The notes beneath the pieces were generated by a model, which saw only the letters and a program-made list of their open reading frames with translations, searched no databases and was not told the origin of the DNA. Made by a program: the position numbers and the translations under genes. This document shows positions 35,201 to 58,483 of a DNA stretch of 64,000 nucleotides, piece by piece (position 1 is the stretch's first letter; each line of letters opens with the position of its first letter). The stretch is from the NCBI GenBank assembly GCA_937911045.1, contig CALEPX010000004.1, positions 17,421 to 81,420 of the forward strand, read 5' to 3'. The stretch is from an uncultured Fretibacterium sp. (GTDB lineage: Bacteria; Synergistota; Synergistia; Synergistales; Aminobacteriaceae).

Positions 35201-35296
35201 TTTGGATTTACAACCGAGAAAAGTTTTGCGAGATTACCTGAGAATGTGAGAGAGCATGTGTCAAATCTTGGGCGCAGAATTATTTTCGCTCAGTGA
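32204..35296 (+). CDS. mfd: Transcription-repair coupling factor
   Basis: CarD/RNAP-interacting region (GQLVIHEDFGVGIF), SF2 helicase motifs (GDVGFGKTEVA, DEEHRFG, SATPIPRT, QLRGRVGR) and a TRCF C-terminal domain. The start codon is uncertain (TTG 32204 or ATG 32222). Confidence 0.92.
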   Translation: MIFPDNMCPKISRAKISELNDATIFEYVNGAANAYICPTDAKNSHVIAIFADVLRASSFVSDYRILHENHNAFLLNELPLNIQIQNLQPLLIERGEMIRNWLKSGGVLATTPGALMSPCAFGSSEMKLQLGQEISPEKISAWLHESGYKNSSLVWSPGQYVRRGFIIDVFDPAHAMPIRIEFFDDVIDRIGAFNPQTQKSDSTLMKLDEIILHGLASESDSRKFPIEIFPANAKILFFDTDKINIQAGSFRWLWNEILSENHAIYKIQDWNEILAALLDMRNLRIEPVSKNAKFEVDISPLPAFKGDASVLSGICDALEKRNFHIKLYTQNPIFFETPYELHREKLSSGFIDNAGKIAFISDRELSGIIANEPVTKWRVPLEWQEKLSVGQLVIHEDFGVGIFRGIEKFKTAGSNHEPVDKLSIEFADEQRLLIPVLQSYKLIPMNEHVNENTELDSLRSVRWKKNLAKIREQAHDEAKTLLEIFAHRELERRDPRISPDDMYDKFVSAFPFNETVDQIKAIQDIMRDLSGNFPMDRLLVGDVGFGKTEVAMRAAFRVIESGFQVCVLVPTTLLAQQHFNTFQSRFAGFPVKIGMLSRFVSSKQSAKIISEIRENKLDIIIATHKILQKGIDFKNLGLLIIDEEHRFGVMHKEGLKKIYGSVDVLSLSATPIPRTLALSLRGLRSVSVLLTPPENRLPVATFSGIWQNSTVRRAVAYELSRGGQVYFLSCRISRIERYRQMLETFFPNAKIGIAHGQLSEKELEQIMLKFYAGEIDILIATTIIESGLDVERANTIIIDNSEELGLAQMYQLRGRVGRRGEKAFAYFFYPERGILNRETMDRLEAITTMTDLGSGYEIAKRDLDIRGGGNIGGTSQHGKDNSGNFGLFYEMLERELENLRGVKPHESVQINSDHGVGSIPEYYIPQEDVRVTLYRRLMHANDLPELDNLLSEMKDRFGKLPDDVKYLGGLLAIRKFGSDFGIKRVEIKNGLVKISCPNEFGFTTEKSFARLPENVREHVSNLGRRIIFAQ

Positions 35297-36414
35297 TGCA
35301 GGCGGATATATTTGCCGTTGACCCAACCGTTAGTTCCGTCTCTTGCAGTAACTCTGTACCAATCGCTGTTTGAATCGCTGAAGATTTCGTGAGCTGTAAT
35401 TTCGCTGCCGTCTGGTAACGCGTCCAAAACTTGCGAGCCTTTCGCCACCGGAAAATTTCTGATGTTCAGCTTGTCTGATTGAGAGAGCGAGATTGTGCCT
35501 TCGACCGGTAATCTGTAATTTCGATTTGAGCGTTCGATCTCAGTCCGTGAGAATTTATTTTTGTCCAGCGCAACGACGTAGCTTGCCAACGCCCAACCTT
35601 GTGTTCCGCTTGCAGTTCTGACGTAATACCAAAATTCGTGATCTGAATCGCTTGTTCTGTATATGCTGACCGGATGACCGGAGTTCAATTTTTTCAGAGC
35701 GGGTGCGCGTATATTTGGGATTGCTCGAATATAGACGTTATTATCGAAAATTACGCCCGGGTACGGCAGAGAATTTTGAGCTTCGAGATTTGTCATGTAT
35801 GGACGTTCGGTTTTCAGACGTTCGATCATGTCACAGCGTTTTTGTGCGATTTCGTAGCCCTGAGCAGCAGCTTTCTTGTACCAGCGCAAAGCCTCGTCAT
35901 AATCGCGACTAACTCCCCAGCCTTTGTAATATAACAAACCTACGCTAGCCTGAGCAAAATAATTTCCCTGTTCTGCAGCAGTTTTGAACCAACGCATTGC
36001 CTGTGAATAATCGCGCGTCACACCCCAGCCGTTTTGATACATCCAGCCGAGTTTGTCCTGAGCCGGAGCATAGCCCTGATTAGACAGCCTGTTGAAAATT
36101 TCGAAGGCTTGCGAGTAATTACGCTCTTTCAGATATTTCTCAGCCTGGAAATACGCATCTTGAACACTTCCGGAACTTGAACTTGACCCCGAAGAACCGG
36201 AGCTTGAGCTTGAATCCGAATCCGAAGTCAACCAATCTACAAATGCGTCAACAGCAGCGTCAATAATTGCGTCCTCAATTTGCTCGATTATAATGTCCCC
36301 GATGATTCCCAAGAGCGAATCGTCTTCTGCACGGGCGATTTTTGCAGCCAATGGGTTACAAATCAACGCCACACACAACACAAATGCAACAAATCTGCGC
36401 GAAAAATTTTTCAT
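35290..36414 (-). CDS. Exported Sel1-repeat / tandem SH3b domain protein
   Basis: Signal peptide, poly-Ser linker, three Sel1 repeats (AQDKLGWMYQNGWGV..., AQASVGLLYYKGWGV...) and two SH3b-like modules (WYYVRTASGTQGWA, WYRVTARDGTNGWV). Confidence 0.8.
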   Translation of the reverse strand: MKNFSRRFVAFVLCVALICNPLAAKIARAEDDSLLGIIGDIIIEQIEDAIIDAAVDAFVDWLTSDSDSSSSSGSSGSSSSSGSVQDAYFQAEKYLKERNYSQAFEIFNRLSNQGYAPAQDKLGWMYQNGWGVTRDYSQAMRWFKTAAEQGNYFAQASVGLLYYKGWGVSRDYDEALRWYKKAAAQGYEIAQKRCDMIERLKTERPYMTNLEAQNSLPYPGVIFDNNVYIRAIPNIRAPALKKLNSGHPVSIYRTSDSDHEFWYYVRTASGTQGWALASYVVALDKNKFSRTEIERSNRNYRLPVEGTISLSQSDKLNIRNFPVAKGSQVLDALPDGSEITAHEIFSDSNSDWYRVTARDGTNGWVNGKYIRLHH

Positions 36415-36573
36415 GACAACGACCTCCCTATGATTATTTTACGACAAAACGCCCCCAAAAATTCCGAGAGCGTCAGTTAATTATGCGTTCAAAAATTCTG
36501 ATTATCTCAACGAGCAATCTTTATTATAGCTTCGGTAATGTCTTTTACATCGCTTGTCTGAAAAAATCGGAGA

Positions 36574-56338: not shown

Positions 56339-57283
56339 CTAAATCTCCTCCTCACTGAACAGCGCGTAAAATCCGTAAAGCGTCCCAGCCACGATTAAGC
56401 CAACGCATATATTCAGTGGCAGAATTAATCCCGCACTGAAAATATTTCCGAGCTCTCCTTTGGGAATATGCGATTCGAAATCATTTGCTCCGGTGAAGAA
56501 TGACCAGCCCTTCGACAATGCGTAAATCATCAATGCAGCCGAACTCATAATCACAAATTTTCTCTCGCTGAAGAATTTATGCACGCTCTCAAATCCGTAA
56601 GCATTCGCAGCCAAAATCAGCGCAGCACTCAGAATCGCTCCTCCGGAAAATCCTCCGCCCGGTGTCAGATGCCCGTTCAAAATCACGATGCAACCCAGAA
56701 AAACAATCGCTGGGATCGAAATCAACGCAACGCCTCGCAAAATCGAATCGTCCTTAGTGAATTTGTGCAGACGTTCGCCGGAATTTTTCGAATCACGACG
56801 AGACGCAGCCAATAACATCAGCACACTCACAGCAGCCGTGAATAGCACCGCAGATTCTCCGAACGTATCAAACGCGCGATAATCCAGAATCATTCCTGAG
56901 ACGATATTTTGCGCACCAGTTTCTTCGCCGCCGGAAATTATGTAGCGTTCCATGACTTCGTTATTTGCCGGATTATTCTCAGAGCCAAATTTCGGTAATT
57001 CCGCAACAGTTGCTAGTAACAACAACACGATTACAACGCAAATCAACACGCTCATTCCTGAATACACGTTCGAGAACAAATGCAAGCCGTGAATTTCCAG
57101 CCAACGCGAGTATCTCTCATGTAAAGTCTGCTCATGAAAGCGCGAATTTCTGGATTCCTGTTTCTGCGTGAACGGCAAATCCGGTGGAGCTTCGGGAATT
57201 ATTTCTTCGTTCTCAGGTCTTGCGCCGTTGCCCATAACCCAGTTGAAAAAATTTCGCCATATGATCCTCAGATCCTCATTCAA
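56339..57283 (-). CDS. mnhB: Mrp subunit B-like protein (fused MbhE/MbhF-type modules) with an N-terminal extension
   Basis: ILDYRAFDTFGESAVLF and NGHLTPGGGFSGGAILSAA are MnhB-domain motifs. TTG start. Confidence 0.8.
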   Translation of the reverse strand: MNEDLRIIWRNFFNWVMGNGARPENEEIIPEAPPDLPFTQKQESRNSRFHEQTLHERYSRWLEIHGLHLFSNVYSGMSVLICVVIVLLLLATVAELPKFGSENNPANNEVMERYIISGGEETGAQNIVSGMILDYRAFDTFGESAVLFTAAVSVLMLLAASRRDSKNSGERLHKFTKDDSILRGVALISIPAIVFLGCIVILNGHLTPGGGFSGGAILSAALILAANAYGFESVHKFFSERKFVIMSSAALMIYALSKGWSFFTGANDFESHIPKGELGNIFSAGLILPLNICVGLIVAGTLYGFYALFSEEEI

Positions 57284-57289
57284 GACACA

Positions 57290-57508
57290 TTAAGCCTCCT
57301 CGTCACCAAAAGTTTTCTTAATTTCCGCGATAATTTCTGGTGAGACGTTCTTTCGAGTCAAAAACGCTGCGATTTTTTCTACAGTTTGTGAGCGAGCACT
57401 ATCGAACCCCTGAAAATAACCGTCAGTCCATTCCAAAAATGACGTTACTTTCGGATTATCTTTCCATTTCTCTTTCATTTTTTGTAGCTCTTCATATTCG
57501 TCTGACAT
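57290..57508 (-). CDS. 72-aa protein paralogous to the C-terminal domain of the adjacent Rpn-family nuclease (RpnS-like antitoxin candidate)
   Basis: SD AGGAGTGG lies 7 nt upstream. SFLEWTDGYFQGF...TVEKIAAFLTRKNVSPEIIAEI aligns with SFIEEWIEESENKGF...TLDEVAALLRQKGISPEIISEL of the 315-aa protein. Confidence 0.7.
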   Translation of the reverse strand: MSDEYEELQKMKEKWKDNPKVTSFLEWTDGYFQGFDSARSQTVEKIAAFLTRKNVSPEIIAEIKKTFGDEEA

Positions 57509-57535
57509 TTTTTTCCACTCCTATTTCAAACAAAC

Positions 57536-57754
57536 TTACCTGAGTTCAGAAATAATTTCCGGTGATATTCCCTTCTGCCTCAAAAGTGCTGCAACCTCGT
57601 CCAAAGTTTCTGCACGTCCCTCTGCACGACCTTCCGAACGCCCCATTGTGAAACCTTCCGAACGTCCTTCTGAACGTCCTTCTGAACGTCCTCTCATAAA
57701 ACCTTTGTTTTCGCTTTCTTCGATCCATTCCTCGATAAAAGATTTTTCCAGCAT
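57536..57754 (-). CDS. Candidate intragenic ORF giving a 72-aa C-terminal fragment of the Rpn-family protein, from an internal in-frame ATG
   Basis: GGGAGGAG (57770-57763) lies 8 nt upstream of the in-frame ATG at 57754. Confidence 0.4.
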   Translation of the reverse strand: MLEKSFIEEWIEESENKGFMRGRSEGRSEGRSEGFTMGRSEGRAEGRAETLDEVAALLRQKGISPEIISELR

Positions 57755-58483
57755 CTTGTTTTCTCCTCCCAAATTACTCTTAAATTTCTCAAATTCAAGC
57801 TTGAGTTCCTCGTCTCTGAGCCTGATTATCTGACCAACAAACATCAAAATATCCCGTCGATCTTGAATATTCCAGCCCCTGTTATTCAGTAACACAGCGA
57901 CTTCCTTCAAGTACGAGAATTTCTTGAACTCTTTCTCTCGCGTGAATCCGTTGTAATCCCTGAATTTCTTCGCAACGTAAATAATCGGATCAAACAGGTT
58001 ATTGCCACTCAATAATTCTTTGTCATTTTGAGCGTACACTTCGAAAACATTGTAAACATACCTGTGTTGCGTTCCGTACTGGTCGAACTCGTAAATTCCG
58101 GGTGTCTCGCGTTTAGGACGTTTGTGCGTGAGAATCGCCAGAGCAATCGGCATCTTGTGATAGTGCGCGAATATCAGACAGCAGTACAGCATCATTCGCC
58201 ACGAAATATCACGATTACCTTTCCCCTGAACTTCTATGTGCAGCAAAACCCACTCAGCTTCACCCGTCTTCAACTGAATCTCTACCAGCTCATCAACGTG
58301 AAGCGAAGATTTATGCTCATCAGAATTTTGCAAAGTGTCCTGCAGCTCCTGACTCAAAAATTTCGGCGCAATCGTGAAATCTGCATCGTGATAAAGCTCC
58401 GGAATAGTCTTCAGAACCAACTCCGGCAAAAATCTCCTGATACATTGTTTCCACCAAGCATCATGATCAAATTCTTCACACAT
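57536..58483 (-). CDS. Rpn/YhgA-family PD-(D/E)XK recombination-promoting nuclease / putative transposase
   Basis: HDAWWKQCIRRFLPEL N-terminus, HVDELVEIQ and VLLHIEVQGK (a D...E-x-Q core), MMLYCCLI, and (R-S/A-E-G)n repeats before the C-terminal domain. Confidence 0.75.
   Translation of the reverse strand: MCEEFDHDAWWKQCIRRFLPELVLKTIPELYHDADFTIAPKFLSQELQDTLQNSDEHKSSLHVDELVEIQLKTGEAEWVLLHIEVQGKGNRDISWRMMLYCCLIFAHYHKMPIALAILTHKRPKRETPGIYEFDQYGTQHRYVYNVFEVYAQNDKELLSGNNLFDPIIYVAKKFRDYNGFTREKEFKKFSYLKEVAVLLNNRGWNIQDRRDILMFVGQIIRLRDEELKLEFEKFKSNLGGENKMLEKSFIEEWIEESENKGFMRGRSEGRSEGRSEGFTMGRSEGRAEGRAETLDEVAALLRQKGISPEIISELR
57609..57692 (-). repeat. Seven tandem 12-nt units encoding (R-[SA]-E-G)-type tetrapeptides
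   Basis: ccttccgaacgt/ccttctgaacgt/tctgcacgtccc units on the + strand. The protein reads RSEGRSEGRSEGFTMGRSEGRAEGRAET. Confidence 0.85.

What the first reader, a model, noticed from the sequence alone, without database searches (positions are those of the whole stretch)
57290..57508. Stand-alone 72-aa paralogue of the Rpn C-terminal domain encoded immediately downstream
The 72-aa ORF has SD AGGAGTGG and lies 27 nt after the Rpn stop. Over its last 45 residues or so it aligns with the Rpn C-terminus: SFLEW/SFIEEW, GF, and TVEKIAAFLTRKNVSPEIIAEI versus TLDEVAALLRQKGISPEIISEL. It is the same length as the predicted intragenic product. It lacks the (RSEG)n repeat linker. A separately encoded copy of the antitoxin-like domain next to an Rpn gene is not something I know to be described. 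It could be a second or dedicated antitoxin, a decoy, or a regulator of the cassette.
Basis: partly seen in the sequence, partly recalled or inferred. Interest (0 to 1): 0.72.

Follow-up and report, generated by a model that had tools for sequence, protein, structure and literature searches.

The report
Separate Rpn antitoxin-domain copy downstream
A small gene next to an Rpn-type nuclease gene does encode a diverged extra copy of that nuclease's C-terminal antitoxin-like domain, but separately encoded copies of this kind were already described in E. coli in 2023, so this is a new example rather than a new kind of thing.

Summary
On the minus strand, a 72-codon ORF (57290-57508) starts 27 nt after the stop of a 315-aa Rpn-like gene. 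It has an AGGAGTGG Shine-Dalgarno 6 nt upstream. Residues ~28-67 are homologous to the Rpn C-terminal domain (BLASTP E=8e-9; 0/2000 shuffles; hhalign 96.9%, E=1.7e-10). The N-terminal 'SFLEW/SFIEEW' match is not above chance on its own.

The ORF, its SD and its length are conserved in a second lineage (82% identity, dN/dS 0.35). It is otherwise an orphan among 1.84 billion representative proteins.

The claim that this arrangement is undescribed is wrong. Zhong et al. (PNAS 2023, PMC10400941) reported separately encoded RpnS copies ('RpnSs', e.g. ypaA after rpnE) directly downstream of rpn genes.

This copy differs in three ways:
- It is old (38-39% identity over the 38-40 aligned residues, no DNA similarity).
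- It has no tetrapeptide repeats.
- It has an extra N-terminal helix.

It stays constant while the neighbouring rpn C-terminal modules recombine.

The most likely function is a trans-acting binder or antitoxin of the Rpn C-terminal domain. This is untested, and the repeat-matching rule argues against efficient pairing.

Side finding: the cassette sits in a variable slot of a Synergistaceae mrp operon. In other genomes that slot holds Phd-YoeB, a PIN-domain gene pair or a DUF559 gene.

The parts
57290..57508 (-). 72-aa ORF: free-standing, diverged, repeat-less copy of the Rpn C-terminal (RpnS-like) domain with an extra N-terminal helix
   Evidence: ORF. Homology to the Rpn C-terminal domain. 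Conserved in a second lineage with the same length and SD, dN/dS 0.35. AF2 model with four helices, pLDDT 73.5.
57515..57522 (-). Shine-Dalgarno AGGAGTGG, 6 nt before the ATG of the 72-aa ORF
   Evidence: Read from the sequence. The relative has AGGAGAGG at the same place before a TTG start.
57509..57535 (-). 27-nt spacer between the rpn stop and the 72-aa ORF start
   Evidence: It is 53 nt in the relatives.
57536..58483 (-). 315-aa Rpn-like PD-(D/E)XK nuclease gene (putative toxin, RpnL)
   Evidence: Family of about 100 Synergistaceae/Fretibacterium homologues; distant homologues carry PF14261, PF12784 or PF04754. Conserved D64, E84-x-Q86 and R96. Colinear hhalign with E. coli RpnE, E=2e-4. 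Pfam and NCBIfam hits are below threshold. AF2 pLDDT 80.
57536..57754 (-). Predicted intragenic RpnS reading frame (M244-R315, 72 aa) inside rpn
   Evidence: M244 and G240 are nearly invariant in the family. The same Met heads the free-standing RpnSs gene in relatives. Not shown to be translated.
57763..57770 (-). Internal SD GGGAGGAG, 8 nt before the M244 ATG
   Evidence: Read from the sequence.
57608..57692 (-). 12-nt tandem repeat encoding (G-R-S/A-E)n, the hypervariable linker
   Evidence: TRF gives period 12, 7.1 copies. The length differs between relatives: Rpn of 299, 302, 310 and 315 aa.
57295..57301 (-). GAGGAGG, an SD-like motif for the downstream mnhB (TTG at 57281-57283). It lies inside the codons for the acidic tail (D-E-E) of the 72-aa ORF.
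   Evidence: Conserved in the relative L001.
58483..59388 (-). 301-aa Sel1-repeat membrane protein. It is the conserved upstream neighbour of the variable slot and is not a general Rpn partner.
   Evidence: Pfam Sel1. Present at the same operon position in genomes with other slot contents. Absent next to other Rpn homologues.
56339..57283 (-). MbhE/MnhB-type antiporter subunit gene, starting 6 nt after the 72-aa ORF stop. It is the downstream border of the slot.

Best explanation
The 72-aa ORF is a real gene that arose by duplication of the 3' end of the adjacent rpn gene. It is a member of the 'RpnSs' class, meaning separately encoded copies of the Rpn small C-terminal domain.

Shown:
- It is homologous to the helix 2-helix 3 part of the Rpn C-terminal domain.
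- It lies on the same strand with tight spacing and its own SD.
- It is conserved in a sister lineage.
- It is closer to the C-terminal modules of its own locus than to any other family member.

Inferred:
- It is co-transcribed with rpn.
- Its product binds the C-terminal domain of full-length Rpn (RpnL) or of the intragenic RpnS, as a dominant-negative or antitoxin-like partner.
- It thereby damps the nuclease, in the manner shown for E. coli RpnS.

Because it has no tetrapeptide repeats, its pairing cannot depend on matched repeat number. Its action is therefore either weak or works through the conserved helix 2-3 surface.

A secondary, non-exclusive role: its reading frame ends 6 nt before mnhB and carries that gene's SD. 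Its translation therefore probably also couples the inserted cassette to expression of the downstream antiporter genes.
For: Homology:
- BLASTP E=8e-9; 0/2000 shuffles reach the observed score.
- hhalign 96.9%, E=1.7e-10, and 89.7%, E=1.8e-6 against family members that exclude the neighbour.
- The full-length family HMM aligns the ORF colinearly to positions 244-311, the RpnS part, at E=0.002.
- The best pairwise scores are to the own-locus modules. Zhong et al. saw the same for RpnCSs and RpnESs.

Gene reality:
- The same 72 codons and the same SD are found in a second lineage and in 8 assemblies.
- dN/dS is 0.35, Fisher p=0.013-0.03.

Precedent:
- RpnSs genes directly downstream of rpn exist and YpaA protein was detected; RpnS binds and inhibits RpnL (PMC10400941).
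- The E. coli rpnE-ypaA layout was verified.
- Free-standing RpnS modules recur downstream of other Synergistaceae rpn genes (L001 61-aa ORF; L009 143-aa double module).

Context:
- The same operon slot holds classical toxin-antitoxin pairs in other genomes: Phd-YoeB and an unknown gene plus PIN.
- This fits a two-component toxin-antitoxin reading of rpn plus the small gene.
Against: - Zhong et al. found that RpnS neutralises only an RpnL with the same number of tetrapeptide repeats. This ORF has none, whereas the neighbour has about 7.
- Its RpnS-like part evolves fast (residues 47-72: 7 non-synonymous versus 2 synonymous codon changes). Meanwhile the neighbour's own C-terminal domain is almost unchanged between the lineages.
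- No Pfam DUF4351 hit. No similarity to E. coli YpaA.
- The AF2 model has moderate confidence only and shows no Foldseek match to RpnA-S 7TH0.
- Only two lineages carry the ORF, and nothing else was found among 1.84 billion representatives. Conservation evidence is therefore thin.
- No expression or interaction data exist. Co-folding could not be run.
Confidence: 0.55

Rival explanations
1. Evolutionary leftover. The ORF is the stranded 3' end of an earlier rpn allele, left behind when the C-terminal module was replaced by recombination. It no longer has a protein-level function. Its frame is kept open mainly because it ends at, and carries the SD for, the essential downstream mnhB gene (translational coupling).
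For: - The locus demonstrably swaps C-terminal modules. Relatives carry either Rpn(tail A)+RpnSs+72-aa, or Rpn fused to the RpnSs tail plus the 72-aa ORF.
- The 72-aa gene has lost all DNA-level similarity to rpn, its repeats, and the internal SD/ATG segment.
- The start codon differs between lineages (ATG vs TTG), and the N- and C-terminal thirds change mostly non-synonymously.
- GAGGAGG for mnhB lies in its last codons.
- The known E. coli counterpart ypaA is annotated as a pseudogene in RefSeq.
Against: - Overall dN/dS is 0.35, significantly below 1.
- The core, residues 12-46, has 2 non-synonymous and 3 synonymous changes.
- A strong SD is conserved at the same spacing in both lineages.
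- There are no indels over 216 nt, and the ORF is identical in all assemblies of the sister lineage while the adjacent modules vary.
Confidence: 0.3
2. DNA-binding regulator. The small helical protein acts as an HTH-like repressor or autoregulator of the cassette or operon, rather than as a direct binder of the nuclease.
For: - Zhong et al. note HHpred relatedness of RpnS to helix-turn-helix motifs, and that many antitoxins are HTH proteins.
- There are faint sub-threshold Pfam matches of the ORF to HHH_RecD2 (E=0.059) and of the Rpn tail to RecX_HTH2 (E=0.072).
Against: - All these hits are far below threshold.
- No promoter-like site above chance lies near the cassette (12 found vs 9.7 +/- 3.5 expected).
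- No operator-like repeat was noticed, and there is no structural match.
Confidence: 0.08
3. Not a gene. This would be a chance ORF whose similarity to the Rpn tail reflects compositional bias.
For: - The ORF is short, has no database family, and is an orphan outside two lineages.
Against: - The similarity survives composition-preserving shuffles and profile-profile comparison.
- The SD and the frame are conserved.
- Gene callers of independent assemblies call it.
Confidence: 0.05

Closest known systems
E. coli RpnESs (YpaA) downstream of rpnE, and RpnCSs downstream of rpnC (Zhong et al., PNAS 2023, PMC10400941)
   Same: - A small gene on the same strand, a few nucleotides after an rpn gene (12 nt in K-12, 27 nt here).
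- It encodes a second copy of that gene's own C-terminal domain.
- The copy derives from the adjacent gene rather than from elsewhere.
- The locus also shows the reported loss or fusion of such copies.
   Different: - YpaA is a recent copy: it matches the RpnE C-terminal domain closely along its length, the main difference being one extra KLEG tetrapeptide, and it starts at the same Met as the intragenic product.
- The 72-aa ORF is 38-39% identical over only 38-40 aligned residues.
- It has no repeats, has lost the internal SD/Met segment, starts about 20 residues earlier with an extra predicted helix, and has no DNA-level similarity.
- There is no detectable sequence similarity between it and YpaA.
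Intragenic RpnS antitoxin of RpnA-E (crystal structure RpnA-S, PDB 7TH0)
   Same: - A small all-helical C-terminal module.
- The predicted helices at 19-32, 39-52 and 57-67 match the order of the three helices of the Rpn tail.
- The neighbouring gene has the conserved internal Met with a strong SD, and hypervariable tetrapeptide repeats.
   Different: - It is encoded separately and has no repeat insertion.
- The family profile gives only a marginal hit to 7TH0 (E=0.38).
- The 72-aa model gives no Foldseek hit to it.
DUF4351 (PF14261) stand-alone small proteins
   Same: Zhong et al. say separately encoded RpnS genes are annotated DUF4351 in some species. Distant full-length homologues of the neighbouring Rpn carry PF14261.
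   Different: Neither the 72-aa ORF nor the 315-aa protein matches PF14261 at E<=1.
Classical type II toxin-antitoxin pairs (Phd/YefM-YoeB; antitoxin-VapC/PIN)
   Same: - They occupy the same slot of the same operon in related genomes.
- They are two-gene cassettes of a small neutraliser plus a nuclease-type toxin.
   Different: - The gene order is reversed (toxin first).
- The neutraliser is a paralogue of part of the toxin.
- The toxin already carries an intragenic antitoxin frame.

Membership tests
Rpn / YhgA-like recombination-promoting nucleases (PF04754, TIGR01784) - the 315-aa neighbour | Scores above the curated family thresholds | tested here: not met
   PF04754 scores 15.8 bits against a cut-off of 21 (E=0.011). 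TIGR01784 scores 22.1 against 52.1. 13 of 29 family members hit PF04754 at E<=0.01, best 2.4e-4.
Rpn / YhgA-like recombination-promoting nucleases (PF04754, TIGR01784) - the 315-aa neighbour | PD-(D/E)XK core with the D ... E-x-Q motif, colinear with a bona fide Rpn | tested here: met
   D64 and Q86 are nearly invariant, and E84 and R96 invariant, in 29 homologues. hhalign to E. coli RpnE covers 220 columns at E=2.2e-4 (probability 45%) and aligns VDEL...HIEVQ...RMMLY with SDVL...VIEHQ...RLMRY. Full-length hits to PF14261, PF12784 and PF04754 proteins. Foldseek gives only weak hits to PD-(D/E)XK nucleases.
Rpn / YhgA-like recombination-promoting nucleases (PF04754, TIGR01784) - the 315-aa neighbour | C-terminal small domain with a hypervariable number of four-residue repeats | tested here: met
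   12-nt repeat, 7.1 copies. Close relatives have Rpn of 299, 302, 310 and 315 aa that differ in GRSE/GRAE units. The whole family varies in the same place.
Rpn / YhgA-like recombination-promoting nucleases (PF04754, TIGR01784) - the 315-aa neighbour | Internal translation start producing RpnS | tested here: inconclusive
   GGGAGGAG lies 8 nt before the ATG of M244. That Met is nearly invariant and heads the free-standing copy in relatives. Translation itself is not testable here.
Rpn / YhgA-like recombination-promoting nucleases (PF04754, TIGR01784) - the 315-aa neighbour | Toxic DNA endonuclease activity, phage defence | not testable with these tools
   Needs expression and nuclease assays.
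RpnSs (separately encoded RpnS copy) - the 72-aa ORF | Homologous to the C-terminal domain of the adjacent rpn gene | tested here: met
RpnSs (separately encoded RpnS copy) - the 72-aa ORF | Same strand, immediately downstream of rpn, with its own ribosome-binding site | tested here: met
   27-nt gap; AGGAGTGG 6 nt before the ATG; conserved in the relative.
RpnSs (separately encoded RpnS copy) - the 72-aa ORF | Groups with its own upstream RpnS rather than with those of other loci | tested here: met
   The highest pairwise scores are to the own-locus modules (92 and 82), then to the nearest Rpn relatives; most others score <=46.
RpnSs (separately encoded RpnS copy) - the 72-aa ORF | Carries the four-residue repeats in helix 1 | tested here: not met
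   No repeat is present in the 72-aa sequence. Repeat number can be zero in some RpnS according to Zhong et al., so this is a difference rather than an exclusion.
RpnSs (separately encoded RpnS copy) - the 72-aa ORF | Three-helix bundle like RpnA-S (7TH0) | tested here: inconclusive
   The AF2 model has pLDDT 73.5 and four helices, the last three in the expected order. Foldseek finds no PDB match.
RpnSs (separately encoded RpnS copy) - the 72-aa ORF | Matches Pfam DUF4351 (PF14261) | tested here: not met
   No hit at E<=1.
RpnSs (separately encoded RpnS copy) - the 72-aa ORF | Protein is made, binds RpnL and blocks its toxicity | not testable with these tools
   No multimer prediction or experiment was available.

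The most novel reading that the evidence does not exclude
The 72-aa protein is a repeat-independent, constant partner of a nuclease whose own C-terminal module is continually reshuffled. It could be a 'universal' back-up antitoxin, or a sensor or decoy that works through the helix 2-3 surface. It would also act as the translational adaptor that lets a toxin cassette live inside an essential antiporter operon. This would be one instance of a previously undescribed toxin-antitoxin integration hotspot between the Sel1 gene and mbhE in Synergistaceae mrp operons.
Probability: 0.12. Interest if true: 0.6.

Novelty: new member of a known kind. Interest (0 to 1): 0.3.

Why it matters
As it stands, it adds a Synergistaceae example to a phenomenon already shown in E. 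coli: a second, separately encoded copy of the Rpn antitoxin domain.

Its modest value is as a natural test of the repeat-matching rule. This is an old, repeat-less copy kept next to a nuclease with about seven repeats, and it stays constant while the neighbouring modules recombine. If it still neutralises the nuclease, the rule is not general. If it does not, it shows how such copies decay.

The operon context may be of more general interest than the ORF itself. Different toxin-antitoxin cassettes occupy one slot inside a housekeeping mrp operon.

Tried and rejected
- An exhaustive HMM search of the 72-aa pair against 1.84 billion representatives found only the sister protein. A word-indexed search found 2 clusters. 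No wider family exists to build on.
- Pfam and NCBIfam scans of the ORF found nothing meaningful.
- PDB sequence searches found nothing for the ORF. The Rpn family profile hit RpnA-S 7TH0 only at E=0.38.
- The AF2 model of the ORF followed by Foldseek against PDB gave one non-significant hit. The structural test of 'RpnS fold' therefore failed to decide.
- Foldseek of the Rpn model gave no hit at E<=0.001 (best about 0.1). PD-(D/E)XK nucleases appear only weakly among the top hits.
- hhalign of the ORF against E. coli YpaA showed no similarity.
I do not rely on either.
- A DNA-level alignment of the ORF to the rpn 3' end is within the shuffle range, so recent gene conversion is rejected.
- A promoter and terminator scan stayed at chance level.
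- I considered Sel1 as a third component of an Rpn system. I rejected this because Sel1 is absent next to other Rpn homologues and present in the operon with unrelated slot contents.
- Co-folding of the ORF with Rpn was not possible.

Full report
**1. What is in the sequence**

All relevant genes are on the minus strand. In gene order they are:
- mnhG (59677-60018)
- mbhD (59410-59676)
- a 301-aa Sel1-repeat protein (58483-59388)
- a 315-aa protein (57536-58483)
- the 72-aa ORF of the finding (57290-57508)
- an MbhE/MnhB-type subunit (56339-57283)
- mnhC and two mnhD-type genes

The 72-aa ORF starts 27 nt after the TAA of the 315-aa gene. AGGAGTGG lies 6 nt upstream of its ATG. It stops 6 nt before the TTG start of mnhB.

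The 315-aa gene contains a 12-nt tandem repeat (57608-57692, 7.1 copies) that encodes GRSE/GRAE units. It also has an internal ATG (M244, 57752-57754) preceded by GGGAGGAG. The frame from M244 is also 72 aa long.

**2. Is the similarity real?**

Yes, for the C-terminal half.
- BLASTP gives 15/38 identities, E=8e-9.
- The local alignment score of 82 was not reached by any of 2000 composition-preserving shuffles (mean 30.4, sd 4.8).
- A profile of the two known 72-aa sequences was compared with 33 C-terminal domains from other family members, excluding the neighbour and its closest relative. This gives hhalign probability 89.7%, E=1.8e-6.
- Against the seven C-terminal modules of its own subfamily it gives 96.9%, E=1.7e-10 over columns 28-67.
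- I searched six-frame translations of the window and 44 fetched loci. The 72-aa profile hits nothing but itself and the Rpn C-terminal modules of this locus.
- The full-length family HMM places the ORF colinearly on positions 244-311, which is the RpnS part.

Taken by segment, only residues 38-72 are significant. The 'SFLEW/SFIEEW' match scores at chance level, and an alternative N-terminal match (EELQKMKEKWKDN / EELKLEFEKFKSN) has p about 0.07-0.17. There is no DNA-level similarity, so the duplication is old.

**3. Is the neighbour an Rpn?**

It fails the curated thresholds: PF04754 at 15.8 bits against 21, and TIGR01784 at 22.1 against 52.1. Several other lines place it as a distant member of the Rpn/YhgA-like/DUF4351 assemblage.
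- It belongs to a family of about 75 Synergistaceae/Fretibacterium proteins. More distant full-length homologues carry PF14261, PF12784 or PF04754.
- The family conserves D64, E84-x-Q86 and R96.
- A colinear 220-column hhalign with E. coli RpnE (E=2.2e-4) lines up the catalytic motifs and the C-terminal domain.
- All members have the Rpn hallmarks described by Zhong et al. These are a conserved Met preceded by G-E/G codons, then a variable number of four-residue repeats, then a short helical tail.
- The AF2 model (pLDDT 80) has an alpha/beta core. Its Foldseek hits to PD-(D/E)XK nucleases are weak only.

**4. Is the 72-aa ORF a gene?**

It is found in only two lineages.
- The window's own sequence is P0001, from biogas-reactor metagenome contigs.
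- The 82%-identical P0002/P0108 comes from a red-deer rumen Synergistales MAG and related assemblies.
- An exhaustive HMM search of 1.84 billion representative proteins found nothing else.

Between the two lineages the length is identical. The SD is conserved (AGGAGTGG / AGGAGAGG, same spacing). The start codon differs (ATG / TTG).

dN/dS is 0.35 (9.5 synonymous and 15.5 non-synonymous differences; Fisher p=0.013-0.03). For comparison it is 0.14 for the Rpn nuclease part, 0.17 for MnhB and 0.46 for Sel1.

The constraint is concentrated in residues 12-46, with 2 non-synonymous and 3 synonymous changes. The RpnS-like end (47-72) has 7 and 2. The last codons (D-E-E) spell GAGGAGG, the likely SD of mnhB, which is a nucleotide-level constraint independent of the protein.

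I conclude it is probably a functional gene, but the evidence is modest.

**5. The locus is polymorphic in the way already described for E. coli**

In the sister lineage some assemblies carry three elements in a row:
- Rpn with a different tail (…NMNAVVEALASKGMSPDFIAEIREICMKRS)
- a free-standing 56-61-aa RpnSs (MLEKSFIEEWIEESENKAFTKGRSEGRAEGRSETLDEVAALLKQKGISPEIISELR)
- the 72-aa ORF

Other assemblies have Rpn fused directly to the RpnSs tail, followed by the 72-aa ORF. Repeat numbers differ, giving Rpn of 299, 302 and 310 aa, and scaffold gaps fall in the repeats. The window has the fused form.

The 72-aa ORF is identical in all these variants. Another Fretibacterium MAG has a 143-aa ORF made of two RpnS modules after its rpn gene.

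**6. Comparison with what is known**

Zhong et al. (PNAS 2023, PMC10400941) made several relevant findings:
- RpnS is translated from inside rpn, binds RpnL and blocks its toxic endonuclease activity.
- RpnS is a three-helix bundle (7TH0) that dimerises through helix 1, where the repeats sit.
- Only an RpnS with the same repeat number neutralises a given RpnL.
[quoted passage not shown] The examples are rpnESs (ypaA) and rpnCSs directly downstream of rpnE and rpnC, each derived from its own neighbour and sometimes lost or fused.

Koonin's commentary highlights the same point.

I verified the K-12 layout. ypaA starts 12 nt after rpnE, is a close copy of the RpnE C-terminus whose main difference is one extra KLEG unit, and is annotated as a pseudogene in RefSeq.

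The arrangement in the finding is therefore a known kind. The present copy differs in four respects:
- It is ancient (38-39% identity over the 38-40 aligned residues).
- It has no repeats.
- It lacks the internal SD/Met segment.
- It starts earlier, with an extra predicted helix (H3-14).

It does not match DUF4351, YpaA or 7TH0 by sequence or fold search.

**7. Mechanism**

Most likely (about 0.55), the product is a trans-acting partner of the Rpn C-terminal domain, of the antitoxin or dominant-negative kind, co-transcribed with rpn. What is shown is homology, position, an SD and conservation. Binding and neutralisation are inferred.

The repeat-matching rule and the fast evolution of its RpnS-like end argue that any pairing is weak or uses the helix 2-3 surface.

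The main rival (about 0.3) is a stranded relic of earlier C-terminal module exchange. Its frame would persist because it delivers ribosomes and the SD to mnhB. A regulator role (about 0.08) and a non-gene (about 0.05) are less likely.

**8. Context noticed on the way**

The cassette lies inside an mrp/mbh-type antiporter operon, with no promoter or terminator signal above chance.

In other Synergistaceae genomes the MnhB protein is 69-75% identical and the operon order is the same: mnhE-F-G-mbhD-Sel1/TPR-[slot]-mbhE-C-D-D. There the slot holds:
- a DUF559 nuclease-like gene (L050/L051)
- Phd/YefM plus YoeB (L052)
- an unknown 89-aa gene plus a PIN-domain gene (L053)
- nothing (L054)

In L053 the cassette is flanked by a direct repeat of the mnhB ribosome-binding site and start (GAAAGGAG..CACACAACCTTGAACG).

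Sel1 is thus the conserved border of a slot that recurrently receives toxin-antitoxin-type cassettes, not an Rpn partner. This supports reading rpn plus the small gene as one cassette. It is the more unusual observation in this region, but it is outside the finding as given.

**9. Verdict**

This is a new, diverged member of the published RpnSs class. Interest is 0.3.

Noticed in passing
window 57284-58482 (slot) with borders Sel1 58483-59388 and mnhB 56339-57283; loci L050-L054: The position between the Sel1/TPR gene and mbhE/mnhB of a Synergistaceae mrp operon is a variable slot. It holds Rpn+72-aa here, DUF559 in L050/L051, Phd-YoeB in L052, an unknown gene plus PIN in L053, and is empty in L054. 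It looks like a toxin-antitoxin integration hotspot inside a housekeeping operon.
   Followed up: partly
L053 2760-2800 and 3470-3510: The PIN cassette is flanked by a direct repeat of the mnhB ribosome-binding site plus start (ACGAAAGGAGTATCACACAACCTTGAACG / ATGAAAGGAGACACACAACCTTGAACG). This suggests insertion at, or capture of, the mnhB translation start.
   Followed up: no
L001/L003/L005/L007 4804-5947 versus L002 5048-5947: Within one species-level population the rpn locus exists in two forms. One is Rpn(tail A) plus a free-standing 56-61-aa RpnSs. The other is Rpn fused to the RpnSs tail. Repeat counts differ (299, 302, 310 aa), and scaffold N-runs in L004 and L006 fall exactly in the repeat region.
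   Followed up: yes
L009 4963-5394: A 143-aa ORF made of two tandem RpnS modules lies 41 nt downstream of an rpn homologue in a Fretibacterium MAG. L010 has a further partial module at the contig end.
   Followed up: partly
L047 2245-3335: In one assembly of the sister lineage the rpn gene is split into two overlapping frames within the repeat region. This is either a frameshift or an assembly error, and no gene was called there.
   Followed up: no
window 57295-57301: The SD-like GAGGAGG for mnhB is encoded by the D-E-E codons at the end of the 72-aa ORF, and the stop lies 6 nt before the mnhB TTG. The ORF may therefore be needed for translational coupling.
   Followed up: partly
window 57614-57705: The repeat block of the window's rpn also scores as a 48-nt unit in 1.9 copies (GFMRGRSEGRSEGRSE / GFTMGRSEGRAEGRAE). 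This would be expected from unequal recombination between two C-terminal modules.
   Followed up: no
window 35293-36438 (-): A second Sel1-repeat-like reading frame (382-aa stop-to-stop segment) elsewhere in the window shows weak similarity to the operon's Sel1 protein (E=3e-8).
   Followed up: no
L048/L049: The same rumen samples contain a second mnhB-C-D-D cluster (MnhB 77% identical) that lacks mnhEFG-mbhD-Sel1 and lies divergent from ilvC. It is a different operon form without the slot.
   Followed up: no
L045 7817-8002 (E. coli K-12 ypaA): RefSeq annotates ypaA (rpnESs) as a pseudogene, although Zhong et al. detected the tagged protein.
   Followed up: no
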